64,000 nt of DNA from Eledone cirrhosa. Taxonomy: Eukaryota. A program made the translations under genes and the position numbers. Of the stretch, positions 4,571-55,665 are shown in pieces; position 1 is the stretch's first letter, and each line of letters begins with the position of its first letter. The notes beneath the pieces were generated by a model. It saw only the letters and a program-made list of their open reading frames with translations. It was not told the DNA's origin and did not search any database. The stretch is taken from contig OZ024751.1 of the NCBI GenBank assembly GCA_964016885.1, forward strand, positions 49,600,001 through 49,664,000, read 5' to 3'.

Positions 4571-4762
4571 TAGGAACAAGTAAGACCCCGACGGCTGAGC
4601 TCAAGCCGTTTTGACGGCTAATTCTGTACAGAATTAGCCGTCGAAACGGCTTGAGCTCAGCCGTCGCGGTCTTACTTGTTCCTATTACCCACTCTACTAC
4701 CCTAAGTATTGGGTACTTTGGTGCGTTATGGTCCGCCTGGTTCCTTACCACATTTCCTTCGT
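4571..4762 (+). mobile_element. Fold-back PLE-end insertion (family C)
   Basis: ~57-bp arms 4571-4627 / 4628-4685 around AATTCTGTACAGAATT, then a unique tail 4686-4762. Contains hammerhead 3' half GAAA-CGGCT..AGCCG-TC. TA flanks. Confidence 0.75.
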
Positions 4763-4783
4763 TATATATATATATATATATAT

Positions 4784-5202
4784 ATGCAGAAGTTATATTT
4801 AATTTGTTGGGATTCAACAAGCTTAAAAGTTTGATAACTGATATAAAGCACTCAACAGTTAACTGGAGTAATTATTCAACATATTAATAAATGGAAACTA
4901 TATTTATAAGACCATAATTATTTATTATATATATTTCAGCGAACCTTCAACCGTCAAGGTTGTTTTTCTAAGGGTATGTCAACATTTATAAAACAAATTT
5001 TGTATTTCATCTGATGAAAGCGCACCAAAACTGCCTTGGTTGCCCTTGAAATATATATAATAAAATAATTATGGTTTTATAAATATAGTTTCCATTTATT
5101 AATATGTTGAATAATTACTCCAGTTAACTGTTGAGTGCTTTATATCAGTTATCAAACTTTTAAGCTTGTTGAATCCCAACAAATTAAATATAACTTCTGC
5201 AT
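4784..5202 (+). mobile_element. Fold-back insertion (family F), ~155-bp arms around a hammerhead
   Basis: 4784-4938 is the inverted copy of 5046-5202. Spacer holds ATTTCAT-CTGATGA-stem II-GAAA-TATATA-TA-ATAAAAT (5003-5067). Confidence 0.8.
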
Positions 5203-5508
5203 ATATATATATATATATATATATATATATATATATATATATATATATATATATATATATATATATATATATATATATATATATATATATATATATATAT
5301 ATATATATATATATATATATATATATATATATATATATATATATATATATATATATATATATATATATATATATATATATATATATATATATATATATAT
5401 ATATATATATATATATATATATATATATATATATATATATATATATATATATATATATATATATATATATATATATATATATATATATATATATATATAT
5501 ATATATAT
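5201..5508. repeat. (TA)n microsatellite, ~300 bp pure
   Basis: Directly visible; one of dozens of TA tracts (others include 10310-10775, 14135-14545, 22363-22775, 27615-27785, 38652-38861). Confidence 0.98.
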
Positions 5509-5563
5509 AACGTTATATATATATATGTATATATATATAACGAAGGAAATGTATATATTAATA

Positions 5564-5751
5564 GGGCGGTGGATTGGCAGTATCGGTAGAGGGTCGGACG
5601 CCATGCTTTCCAGCATAGTTACGTCCCTTTACGATCTGAGTTCAAATCCCTCCGAGGTTGACTTTGCCTTTCATCCTTACGGGGTCGATAAAATAAAGTA
5701 CCAATAATGCACTGGGTAATTGCTGGCCTTGTGCCTAAAGTAGAAACAATT
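5564..5751 (+). mobile_element. tRNA-type SINE (family S1, short subtype)
   Basis: GGCGGTGGATTGGCAGTATCGGTAG..GAGTTCAAATCC (B box)..GCCTTTCATCCTTACGGGGTCGATAAAATAAAGTACC..GGCCTTGTGCC.AAAGTAGAAACAATT; about 17 copies in the window. Confidence 0.9.
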
Positions 5752-6315
5752 AATATATTGTATATATATATATATATATATATATATATAAGTATGTATA
5801 TATGGATGTGCATGTGTTTCTTAATGTCATCCATATCGCATAAGTACCGAATAACTTAAATTTTATATCGGACATATTCCCAACCTACAAGTGGAATAAT
5901 GGAATGTGTAGCACACTCTAGAGATAAATCAACCCCCTAATATATCTTTCGTTCCCTAGAATGACTCTACACATTTATATATGTGAACGTGTGTGTATAT
6001 ATATATGTGTGTGTGTGCGCGCGGGTTAGTTTCTGCTTGTGTTTGAATGCATATATATGGTTTTCTTTTATATATATTAAACAAACATACTTCTCACCAT
6101 CAGTAGCCGTTAAATGTGGGCAGACACGTGTTTCTGTTTTTTTTTTTTTTACCTGTGGTCTATGACTTTTACTTCCTCGGTACGTGGCAAATAAGAAACT
6201 ATTGTGTATATATTTCTTGGCATGACACATTTGTCGCAGATTTATCATTAGTAAACACATATAAATCTACATCATATATTTGTCTTATGAAGTTAGATCA
6301 TAACTTATCTTCAAG

Positions 6316-6770
6316 TTAGTTTTGCGTGGTTTTTTATATGAAATCGTGTGTCGAAACAAATATTGTTATACTTGGGGAGGGTCATATTGTTGTAATACTA
6401 TTGCCAGAATTAATAACAGAACACACTCACTGTTTGGTTGGTTTTCACTTCTGTATCTTTTATATCTCCACAGTTAATTTATTCGGTCCTCAATGTTTCC
6501 CATTGACTGACCAACTGTCAAAATTACACATATAATATAGCTACAAACACATATATATAGTCTAACTAAGTTCTTTCGTTACACATCTGCAACATCGTCA
6601 GTGGTGCTATTATGTTTCCTCCTGTTGTATTGTATGTGTACGCCATATTTATTTAATCTGTTTATTTATTTTTTTTCTTCTTCCCTGCGCATGCGTTTGC
6701 GTGTGTGTATAGTTTTTGATGTGTTCGTGTTTGGGTGACTGTTTTGGTTATTGTATTCTATCTTCAAATT
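6316..6770 (-). mobile_element. Penelope-like pLTR/3'UTR fragment (family B)
   Basis: Colinear with 1516-1850. Minus-strand hammerhead core CTGACGA-TGTTGCA..TGTAAC-GAAA-GAAC-TT at ~6565-6605. Confidence 0.75.
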
Positions 6771-7122
6771 GATGTTTCGTAATTCTTAGTACTAGAAGTA
6801 ACAGTTGTTAGTTTCACAAATCCACAATTGAATGGTATATGCTTGAACAATTGAACTCAGTCTTTTAATGTATGTTTGATAAGGCAATGCGATTTATCCC
6901 TCATCGTTATTGCAACATTGAGCTGAATGGAGATAACGAGTCCCTTGTTCCCTGTAAATGACAGGTACTACCGTAACCGTGTTATATATTCGTCATTCCT
7001 AACAAATAAAATAAATAAAACTTTGTCGATCGACTTTCGTCAAATCGGACCGAGGAAACAATGTTTCCGTTGATCTTTCCAATGGCTAATACAATCTATC
7101 TGATCAGATCACAACTCCAGTG

Positions 7123-52905: not shown

Positions 52906-53154
52906 AATGTAGAATGATTTATGATGTGGTCTTTGCTTTTGGAAATCATATTTATACCTCAGACATTTGCGATGAATTCTACGTTGAACTATATTTCTTC
53001 TATGGCCCAGTCTATCTGAGCTTCTTATGCTGTTTCTGGCCGTCTCGTATTCCTTTAGACACAGTGGTACATAAGCGTTTTATGTTTTTGCTATTTGCTG
53101 CCTGCTCCACAAGCATGCCGGCTTGTTGTGTTTTAAGAATGATGTTTTACGAAT

Positions 53155-53992
53155 AATTGTTTCTACTTTTGGCACAAGGCCAACAAATTATACAGTACAT
53201 TACTGGTACTTTATTTTATCGACCTCATAAGGATGAAAGGCAAAGTTAACCTCGGTGGGATTTGAACTCAGATCGTTAAGGGACGTAAGTATGCTGGAAA
53301 GCATGGCATCCGACCCTCTACCGATACTGCCAAGCCAATACTGCCTGATGTTTTACGAATAATGTGGGGTAATTTCTTTTTCCGACATGTTATTATTTAC
53401 AAAAGGGATGAGCCTAGTTAGAATGTCATCAATGATTGTCCAGTTAACGAATGATGGGAAAGGTAAGGTGAAGAGATCTCTACGATTCCGGTCGGTTTAG
53501 TTAGAATGCAAGATTAAATTTCGAATATTTTACAAATAGGTGAACAAGAAACTAACTTACAGAGCAGAAACAAGGGTGGCGATCAGTCCAGAAATAAATA
53601 GTCACAACGATAACAAAAACAACAATAATAACCATTGTTTCTACTTTTGGCACAAGGCCAACAACTAAATCAGTACATTACTGGTACTTTATTTTATCGA
53701 CCCCCGTAAGGATGAAAGGCAAAGTTGACCTCGGCGGGATTTGAACCCAGAACGTAAAGGGGCGGAACTCTATGCTGCAAAACATTGCGTCCGACAATAA
53801 TAGTGATTTCTAGTATAGGCACAAAGCCAGTAATTTGGGGGGAGCAGAAAGTCGATTAAATCGACCCCAATACGTTACTGGTGCTTTATTTTATCGACCC
53901 CGTAAGGATGAAAGGCAAAGTTAAGCTCGACGGGATTTGAACTCAGACTGTAAAGGGGGACAACTTTGTGCTGCAAAGCATGGCGTCCGACA
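53155..53992 (-). mobile_element. Three SINE S1 copies (53155-53336, 53634-53796, 53803-53992 long subtype)
   Basis: Reverse complements of S1; the third has the extra GGGGTCGATTTAATCGACT..CCCCCC segment. Confidence 0.9.
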
Positions 53993-54387
53993 ATAATAAT
54001 GGTAATCAATAATTACAAAAACAACTGTCACAATAATAATATTATCAATAACAATAACCATAAAAATATAAATAGTAGTAGTAGTAGTAGTAGTAGTAGT
54101 AGTAGTAGTAGTAGTAGTAGTAGTAGTAGTAGCAGTAGCAGCAGCAGCAGCAGCAGCAGTACATTGTAATTTCGTCCAGGAAATGAATTTGAAAACATTC
54201 AATTACATGGTTTATGCCGATATAATAACCATTGCTACACCTTCCCAAAGCCCGTAACTTCACGCAGACACATACATAAGACCCAATCCTTCCGAAATCA
54301 TAGTATATCATTTAACGAAATATTTGCAACAACTAATGGAGAATAAGGTTTATATAATTCTATATGTATGTATATATATATATGCAT

Positions 54388-54541
54388 ATAACGAAGGAAA
54401 TGTGGTAAGGAACCAGGTGGACCATAACGCACCAAAGTACTCAATACTTAGGGTAGTAGAGTGGGTAATAGGAACAAGTAAGACTCCGACGGCTGAGCTC
54501 AAGCCGTTTCGACGGCTAATTCTGGTCTTACTTGTTCCTAT
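54388..54541 (-). mobile_element. Family C fold-back with partly deleted second arm
   Basis: Reverse complement of 4628-4762 up to GGCTAATTCT, then a jump to GGTCTTACTTGTTCCTA-(TA)n. Confidence 0.8.
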
Positions 54542-54682
54542 ATATGCATATATATATGTATGTGTGTGTGTGTGTGTGTGTATATATGTATATGTATATG
54601 TATATATATATATATATATATATATATATGTATATGTATATGCATATATGTATATGTATATATATATATGTATATATATATA

Positions 54683-55105
54683 TATTAATAAGAGGAATTC
54701 CAACTTTGTCTGATTTACTCGTTTTATTTACAATCCTTTAAAATATATATAATGGTATTATAATGAAATAGTATGATAGAATATTAAATGCTAAGTGTTA
54801 ATTGAACAAGTACTTTCATGCTTTCGCAATCTTCAGGTTCATGATATGTGGTGACAATCGAGTTTGCAATTTTCAACAGTTGAAAATTGCAAACTCGACT
54901 GTCACCACATATCATGAACCTGAAGATTGCGAAAGCATGAAAGTACTTGTTCAATTAACACTTAGAATTTAATATTCTATCATACTATTTCATTATAATA
55001 ACCTTATATATATTTTAAAGGATTGTAAATAAAACGAGTAAATCAGACAAAGTTGGAATTCCTCTTATTAATATAATCTTCTATACACAATCATACACAC
55101 CCGTG
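54683..55105 (+). mobile_element. Fold-back insertion (family H), ~195-bp near-perfect arms
   Basis: Apex CAAC-A-GTTG at 54878; arms 54683-54877 / 54879-55072; tail to 55105. Confidence 0.87.
54915..54953 (+). ncRNA. Minimal type I hammerhead ribozyme (39 nt)
   Basis: TGAAC-CTGAAGA-TTGC-GAAA-GCAT-GAAA-GTAC-TT-GTTCA with palindromic stem III loop; mirror copy on minus at ~54803-54841. Confidence 0.85.
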
Positions 55106-55444
55106 TATATTTACCTATCTATATATATATATATATATATATATATATATATATATATATATATATATATATATATATATATATATATATATATATATAT
55201 ATATATATATATATATATATATATATATACATACATATATATATATATGTATATGTATATGTATATGTATATATATATATATATATATATATATATATAT
55301 ATTTACTCTTTTACCTGTTTCAGCCATCCGGCTGAGGCCATGCTGGGGCACCGCCCTTGTATATATATATATATATATATAAATATATATATATATGTAT
55401 ATATATATACATATTTGCTTGTATATATATATATATGCATATAT

Positions 55445-55665
55445 ATATTTATTAAAATAATAGATTAAAGTTTAAGCAAAGAATCGCTGCTTTCACCCTT
55501 AACGGGAGTTTCAGAAGATCCCGTTAAGGGTGAAATCAGCGATTCTTTGCTTAAACTTTAATCTGTTATTTTAATAAATATTTGCTATACGGTTCTTATA
55601 TATTTTATATATATTTATCCTTTTCGAGCCCTCTTTGGATTTTAGTCTTCAAATTTATTATTATT
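55445..55665 (+). mobile_element. Fold-back insertion (family I)
   Basis: Arms 55445-55507 / 55518-55581 folding at CAGAAGA-TCCCGTTAAGGGT-GAAA (degenerate hammerhead core); tail to 55665. Confidence 0.78.

What the first reader, a model, noticed from the sequence alone, without database searches (positions are those of the whole stretch)
4571..55520. Fold-back apex or truncation point repeatedly coincides with the hammerhead itself
Seen: all four family C copies (4571, 10826, 15265, 54388) turn at GGCTA(A/T)TTCT, the predicted stem II loop, keeping GAAA-stem III-GTC (or its complement) but never CTGANGA. Both family D copies (12377, ~22228) and family I (~55512) fold at or just 5' of the core. 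The inverted arm at 3583 starts in stem I. Inserts at 20460 and 23636 meet the TA tract within the CTGANGA core. In families C and D the two arms of a copy share subtype-specific bases absent from the other subtype. Inference: hairpins are made anew during insertion, when nascent cDNA snaps back on ribozyme stems and self-primes or the RT stalls there, so the ribozyme fold would act as a structural switch point as well as an RNA cutter.
Basis: partly seen in the sequence, partly recalled or inferred. Interest (0 to 1): 0.75.

Follow-up and report, generated by a model that had tools for sequence, protein, structure and literature searches.

The report
Penelope mirror copies mark transcription start
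These mirror-image pieces are short back-to-back copies of Penelope-like jumping genes, rebuilt at each insertion, and their turning point likely marks where the element's RNA begins rather than its ribozyme, with the two halves likely copied separately from the two ends of the cut DNA.

Summary
The junctions are real and are made anew. Family C has about 16,000 of them, with varied junction letters, and the two arms share a subtype in 60 of 64 cases (13 expected). The proposed cause fails. In eight Penelope-like families, short arms end at a family-specific wall. It lies inside the hammerhead (C), at its first base (D, I), or about 45-115 nt upstream (A, B, E, F, G). What the walls share is an initiator-like motif, with a TATA box 29-33 nt upstream in C, D, F and G. 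Once past the wall, arms cross stem II and the core almost unhindered (2 of 19 stop). Family C's core is UUGANAA, upstream of the wall, so the 'stem II loop' was misread. One-cDNA snap-back is contradicted: the commonest junction has its extra bases on the tailed arm 552 times and on the short arm 580 times. Best reading: two target-primed cDNAs run off the 5' end of uncleaved RNA and are end-joined. No RNA data confirm the start. The architecture is published, and this scan reached both ideas before on other DNA of this genome.

The parts
4570..4629 (-). Family C short arm (+2 to +61 of the element), outer end in (TA)n
4626..4765 (+). Family C tailed arm (+2 to about +141); 3' half of the hammerhead only (GAAA 4643-4646, stem III, predicted cleavage after 4665); GTAC microhomology 4626-4629
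10825..10878 (-). Family C short arm reaching +4
10874..10921 (+). Family C tail-only arm starting near +89, joined by a 5-nt microhomology; shares no other sequence with the short arm
   Evidence: same junction type in L065, L088, L090
15266..15449 (.). Family C pair: tailed arm on - strand to -1 (15401), short arm on + strand from +11 (15400)
54388..54541 (.). Family C pair: tailed arm on - strand to +4, short-arm remnant 54524-54541
12314..12508 (.). Family D pair; + arm starts at +2 (12375), core at 12380
22167..22350 (.). Family D pair, apex 22227
55449..55650 (.). Family I pair; + arm starts at +1 (55507), first base of predicted stem I; outer end approximate
2543..3787 (.). Family A inversion: about 1-kb tailed arm on - strand, short + arm from 3583 (2-3 nt microhomology in stem I); atypical for its family
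4786..5200 (.). Counter-example, family E: junction near 4938, about 73 nt upstream of the core (5011)
18789..19071 (.). Counter-example, family F: apex 18930, 40 nt from the core
41474..41919 (.). Counter-example, family B: apex 41696, 113 nt from the core
54686..55070 (.). Counter-example, family G: apex 54878 at the wall 31-33 nt after a TATA box, 42 nt from the core
20165..20460 (-). Single arm meeting (TA)n inside a CTGACGA core; no other copy in my loci; far end approximate
23505..23636 (-). Family J single arm meeting (TA)n inside the core; most other J arms extend 12 to 50 or more nt further; far end approximate

Best explanation
The features are head-to-head insertions of Penelope-like retroelements whose inner ends pile up at one family-specific point that is likely the transcription start, and each pair is likely made by two cDNAs primed from the two cut strands of a (TA)n target and then joined end to end. 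Shown: the wall, the TATA and initiator-like motifs at it, the pairing of one short with one tailed arm, shared subtypes, and equal use of either arm as the longer one. Inferred steps: (1) the pLTR promoter fires at the wall; (2) the RT-endonuclease binds the 5' region of the uncleaved RNA and cuts both target strands; (3) the two 3' ends prime at two fixed internal sites (+61 and about +141 in family C), usually on the same RNA; (4) both cDNAs run off the RNA 5' end, sometimes adding A-runs or a cap-derived C; (5) they are trimmed and joined through 0-5 nt of microhomology. Long, ORF-bearing arms would come from read-through RNA. The hammerhead coincides with the apex only where it happens to lie at or across the start. 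In family C the start splits it, so only read-through RNA would fold an active ribozyme.
For: Wall in C: 92 of 111 arms at risk stop in +7..-5, 2 of 19 in -6..-43, 17 go beyond -60. TATAAA at -29/-30 in three diverged D subtypes, -33 in G, TATTTAAA at -29 in C; TATATAAA about 31-33 nt before the F motif. By-eye counts of 100 listed rows each: D about 71 short, 20 long, 7 a separate chimeric repeat, 1-2 between; G 31 short, 3 between, 66 past the TATA box; B about 41, 4, 55; A about 17 stop within 18 nt of a point about 70-75 nt before the core, about 80 long; computed on held loci. Only 3 of 100 C arms start within 3 nt of the cleavage site (by eye). 85 of 86 pairs are one short plus one tailed arm; subtype the same in 60 of 64. 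Of 57 pairs: tailed arm longer 18, short arm longer 27, equal 12; in 10 the tailed arm starts at +55 or later. Same junction with extra bases on the tailed arm 552, on the short arm 580. One locus (L114) has arms of two different common subtypes. 4,840 loci have both arms reaching +1 with 0-14 nt between, often A-run then T-run. Non-parental G at -1: 3,045 against 599 for A. In vitro, the anole PLE cuts and extends both strands, starts at two internal sites that define the tail, and inserts ribozyme-dead RNA normally (PMC11167929).
Against: No transcript 5' end was observed. No clear TATA box in A, B, E or I, and C subtypes vary at it. 5' ends in C spread from -5 to +7, not one base. In D and I the wall is also the first base of stem I, so a structure-based cause is not excluded there. 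The G excess is partly explained by the partner arm ending in CTG, and among 50 loci with both arms full it is only 13 against 5 (by eye). Walls for E and F rest on about 10 and 4 short arms. The C sample was chosen for holding +13 in at least one arm and comes from the first 14 Mb of one contig. Symmetric trimming of a hairpin tip could mimic the 552:580 result.
Confidence: 0.65

Rival explanations
1. One reading: the RT stalls at hammerhead stems or the nascent cDNA snaps back on them, so the ribozyme fold sets the apex.
For: Walls of C, D and I do lie in or at the hammerhead. In C the wall is a few bases 3' of the apical loop of the extended stem II.
Against: Walls of A, B, E, F and G lie about 45-115 nt upstream of the core. 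In C only 7 of 118 arms stop at +8..+13, just inside the base of stem II, and 2 of 19 in the loop, 5' strand and core. Minimal D and I hammerheads are not the lowest-energy fold. The short arm is the longer one about half the time.
Confidence: 0.06
2. The wall is the RNA 5' end, but one cDNA runs off it, folds back on a short microhomology and primes its own second arm (self-priming, as proposed in PMC3846280); the hairpin tip is then opened and trimmed on either side.
For: High subtype concordance. The commonest junction can be drawn as a 4-bp snap-back with a 6-nt loop.
Against: The short arm carries bases that the tailed arm lacks in 27 of 45 asymmetric pairs, also in pairs with 0-1 mismatches; 552:580 symmetry; nearly non-overlapping arms in 10 of 57; loops of 0-1 nt; one discordant locus.
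Confidence: 0.13
3. The template's 5' end is made after transcription or is a protein roadblock: exonuclease halted at helix I, a cut in loop II, or splice factors bound at a YAG acceptor.
For: Walls of C, D, E, G and I sit on a YAG; in D. virilis the intron end maps to the 5' end of helix I (PMC4209133). Walls of D and I equal the first base of stem I.
Against: Copies keep the AG and often -1 to -5, so they are not spliced. TATA boxes at -29 to -33 in four families. One D subtype and F have no AG at the wall.
Confidence: 0.12
4. Preformed hairpins amplified as units, or assembly fold-back artefacts.
For: Some junction types recur more than 1,000 times.
Against: Junction letters differ from copy to copy. 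The recurrent junction occurs in at least four subtypes and in both orientations. Arms have two fixed, different outer ends.
Confidence: 0.02

Closest known systems
Hydra clade of C-terminal EN+ Penelope-like elements (Craig et al. 2021, PMC8557442; section 11 and passages read)
   Same: Family C parent: single ORF, RW-basic and DKT motifs, CxCX5C linker, CxxC and CxH, hammerhead in the pLTR, (TA)n targets, inverted 5'-truncated copy with one-sided tail.
   Different: In what I read, the paper does not map 5' truncation points, does not report a start site splitting the hammerhead, and ascribes the tail to endonuclease resolution. The tail here is about 80 nt, not 30-40.
Adineta vaga Penelope elements (Arkhipova et al. 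2013, PMC3846280; passages read)
   Same: Head-to-head pLTRs with palindromes at the junction; TATA box and initiator-like motif in the pLTR.
   Different: Explained there by self-priming on an antisense template. The counts here favour two cDNAs running off a sense 5' end.
Poseidon PAc of Anolis in vitro (Frangieh et al. 2024, PMC11167929; parts 1-2 of 4 read, whole main text)
   Same: Both strands cut and extended; two internal RT starts define the tail; unprocessed RNA is the substrate.
   Different: Does not address inverted junctions, pairing of start sites within one event, or the 5' wall.
LINE-1 twin priming (as described in PMC11702581; passages read)
   Same: Second target end primes on the same RNA; inner junction resolved with microhomology.
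   Different: In L1 the second primer lands next to the end of the first cDNA, giving an inversion with little overlap. Here both primers use fixed sites and both run to the 5' end, giving an inverted duplication.
PLE hammerheads (Cervera and de la Pena 2014, PMC4209133; parts 1-2 of 4 read)
   Same: Type I motifs in pLTRs; U3-A8 core variant; pairs on opposite strands 100-700 bp apart.
   Different: Family C has a full 6-bp helix III and a long helix II carrying a TATA-like box and the wall.

Membership tests
EN+ Penelope-like element | Single ORF with RT and C-terminal GIY-YIG between pLTRs | tested here: met
   L103: pLTR, 786-codon frame with FDIESYY, YRDD and IYQC...YIGLT read by eye, pLTR. 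Pfam and PDB sequence searches gave no hit.
EN+ Penelope-like element | Inverted 5'-truncated copy with a tail at one end only | tested here: met
   85 of 86 pairs
Hydra clade | RWK-like motif, DKT, CxCX5C, CxxC and CxH | tested here: met
   RWR, DKT, CNCPDRSIC, CNLC, CKH in P0001
Hydra clade | Placement in the clade by phylogeny | not tested
   No reference set was held. Only family C's ORF was examined; the other families were not assigned.
Type I hammerhead (family C parent) | Three helices around the core | tested here: met
   Three-way junction is the lowest-energy fold in 2 of 6 parents, z -0.5 to -1.8; 97.6% of cells paired in 12 parents, no two-sided changes
Type I hammerhead (family C parent) | Conserved core with free position 7 | tested here: met
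   UGA-N-AA with N = G, U, A or C; U3 in 10 of 12. Rfam listed no hammerhead in the 150 window rows shown.
Type I hammerhead | Self-cleavage | not testable with these tools
   Needs an in vitro assay
Pol II core promoter at the wall | TATA box about 30 nt upstream and initiator | tested here: inconclusive
   TATA present in C, D, F, G; unclear or absent in A, B, E, I. Initiator consensus recalled from memory.
Pol II core promoter at the wall | Capped RNA starting there | not testable with these tools
   Indirect only: G excess at -1
Non-LTR retrozyme | Head-to-tail tandem units each with a whole hammerhead | tested here: not met
   Short family C copies are head-to-head and lack the core

The most novel reading that the evidence does not exclude
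Penelope-like elements insert by obligate twin priming: one RNA, two fixed start sites, two cDNAs run to the cap. Every mirror junction is then a fossil 5'-RACE product that maps each family's promoter from genome sequence alone. In family C the promoter is built into helix II, so the hammerhead is assembled only in read-through (tandem) RNA and acts as a cutter of multimers that monomer transcripts escape.
Probability: 0.4. Interest if true: 0.7.

Novelty: new variant of a known kind. Interest (0 to 1): 0.45.

Why it matters
How Penelope-like elements make their inverted ends, and what their hammerheads do, are open questions. Tens of thousands of junctions give counts that separate the published self-priming idea from twin priming, and they predict exact start sites that one CAGE or RACE experiment can test. 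The ribozyme-as-switch idea as stated does not hold.

Tried and rejected
Rfam scan of the window: the 150 rows shown of 216 were microsatellite-driven or weak, no hammerhead. A search for CTGANGA upstream of family C gave 53 heterogeneous hits, mostly junction fillers or chimeras; this led to the UUGANAA core. Pfam and PDB sequence searches with the ORF gave nothing; no Atlas result was obtained. No RNA holder listed, so no reads were laid. Covariation in the family C hammerhead was uninformative: 12 close sequences, no two-sided change. C-to-A and C-to-G family chimeras (L040, L047, L060) were considered as proof of two cDNAs and set aside, because insertion into an older copy with target deletion explains them too. 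Cap-G test kept as suggestive only; loci L031-L060 were left out because they were picked by a GA-ending pattern. The ends called -4 are partly mimicked by the partner arm, so +7..-5 was treated as one bin. Literature searches listed no paper that maps PLE inverted junctions to the start site or applies twin priming to PLEs; subscription papers are not covered, and supplements (Frangieh Fig. S2, Craig files S1-S2) were not seen and may bear on this.
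Full report
Setting. The window lies at G000:C11:49,600,001-49,664,000 of a 3.0-Gb genome and is rich in (TA)n tracts and short hammerhead-bearing repeats.

The observation. All coordinates check out. Only two of the four family C copies (4571, 15265) are true fold-backs. 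At 10826 a short arm is joined to a tail-only arm, and at 54388 a tailed arm is joined to an 18-nt remnant. The window also has junctions 40, 42, about 73 and 113 nt from their cores, which the finding left out.

The parent. No consistent CTGANGA lies upstream of family C (53 mixed hits). Listing 60 nt upstream of 100 copies showed long copies with a shared upstream sequence. L103 is a pLTR-ORF-pLTR unit whose 786-codon frame has RT and GIY-YIG motifs and the Hydra-clade marks RWR, DKT, CxCX5C, CxxC and CxH. Its hammerhead has a UUGANAA core, position 7 taking all four bases in 12 parents, a long helix II and a 6-bp helix III. The three-way junction is the lowest-energy fold in 2 of 6 parents. 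The U3-A8 core is known from Schistosoma PLEs (PMC4209133).

The wall. With +1 at the A of TTAGTC/TCAGTC, 118 arms in L061-L120 end as follows: 7 at +8..+13, 92 at +7..-5, 2 at -6..-43, none at -44..-60, 17 beyond. The per-base stop rate falls from about 0.1 to 0.003 as the RT enters the loop and 5' strand of helix II. Genome-wide there are about 16,000 such junctions, and 4,840 have both arms reaching +1. Only 3 of 100 arms anchored 3' of the cleavage site start within 3 nt of it (by eye), so the templates were mostly uncleaved, as in vitro (PMC11167929).

Across families. D: wall at CCAGATT or its variants, core at +7, TATAAA at -29/-30 in three diverged subtypes. I: wall at TTAGTTT, core at +6, no clear TATA. 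G: wall at ACAGTTG, TATAAAAG at -33, core about 44 nt downstream; 31 of 100 stop there, 3 between, 66 pass the TATA box. F: TATATAAA about 31-33 nt before TCACTAC, core about 65 nt on; only four short arms. B: wall at TTCATATG, no TATA, core about 115 nt on. E: wall at CCAG, core about 73 nt on. A: soft wall about 70-75 nt before the core, about 80 of 100 long. The constant is a promoter-like context, not a ribozyme element. TATA and initiator motifs in pLTRs are on record (PMC3846280), and Penelope transcription starts inside the pLTR (PMC2377424). A non-parental G precedes +1 five times more often than A (3,045 against 599; 16 against 2 of 55), as copying of a cap would give (recalled mechanism), but partner-arm sequence contributes and the cleaner subset gives only 13 against 5.

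One cDNA or two. 85 of 86 pairs are one short arm (ending at +61) and one tailed arm (ending near +141); subtypes agree in 60 of 64 against 13 by shuffling. Three of the four disagreements are single bases; L114 differs at three bases between two common subtypes. If the tailed cDNA primed itself, the short arm could never hold bases that the tailed arm lacks. It does in 27 of 45 asymmetric pairs, and in 10 of 57 the tailed arm starts at +55 or later. For one junction type the extra bases lie on the tailed arm 552 times and on the short arm 580 times. Fillers often read as an A-run then a T-run, or are 0-1 nt long. This fits two equivalent cDNA ends joined by microhomology, in line with cutting and extension of both strands and two RT starts in vitro and with L1 twin priming. 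Self-priming with later symmetric trimming is not fully excluded.

What is shown and what is inferred. Shown: junction formation anew, the walls, their motifs, short/tailed pairing, symmetry, the parent and its hammerhead sequence. Inferred: that the wall is the start site, that both primers use one RNA, the end-joining step, and that family C's ribozyme works only in read-through RNA.

Novelty. The elements and their architecture are known. My six literature searches found no paper giving the start-site or twin-priming reading for PLEs. Earlier notes of this scan on other pieces of this genome give both; I had reached them before that look-up and tested them here. Added here: the eight-family dissociation, the 552:580 test and the G excess. 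Papers seen: PMC11167929 and PMC4209133 parts 1-2 of 4; PMC8557442 passages and section 11; PMC3846280, PMC2377424, PMC11702581 passages; 10.64898/2026.07.22.740005 part 1 of 5. No supplements were seen.

Verdict. Real and non-random, interpretation half right, best explained by run-off at the transcript start with twin priming (0.65). Interest 0.45.

Noticed in passing
window 27843-30710: Long inverted arms (747 nt, 94%) flanking a coding fragment that reads by eye as the GIY-YIG end of another Penelope-like family.
   Followed up: no
window 43785-46080: Family A insertion with an RT fragment between inverted arms (343 nt, 99%); same family as 2543-3787.
   Followed up: partly
window 16760-16826, 27330-27560, 38447-38564, 46240-46570: Further asymmetric hairpins in (TA)n with no hammerhead core seen near the apex; possible ribozyme-free controls.
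   Followed up: no
L031; G000:C1:4946978-4947108: Family C junctions with long A-run/T-run linkers of 14-18 nt, suggesting slippage or untemplated addition at both cDNA ends.
   Followed up: partly
L040, L047, L060: Family C arms joined at +1 to +5 to family A or G sequence in the same orientation, just inside those families' hammerheads: template jumps or nested insertions.
   Followed up: partly
window 55507-55560: Family I core reads CAGAAGA (A at position 4) in the copies seen, with a predicted U at the cleavage position; activity is doubtful.
   Followed up: no
L121, L128, L129, L130, L135, L145: A separate repeat that has captured a 5'-truncated family D piece and spread with it (7 of 100 rows).
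   Followed up: no
window 45800-45810: Family A carries an AAGATGGCG-like motif 14-18 nt after its soft wall, resembling a YY1 site (recalled), in a TATA-less context.
   Followed up: no
window 47390-48800 and 62080-62700: Two related coding fragments on the - strand that read by eye like a non-LTR retrotransposon with a C-terminal endonuclease.
   Followed up: no
window 5570-5750, 8510-8870, 21470-21670, 53150-53990, 58820-59170, 62990-64000: Many copies of a 180-250 nt SINE-like repeat.
   Followed up: no
window 42574-42976: 91-nt tandem repeat, 4.4 copies, 93% matches.
   Followed up: no
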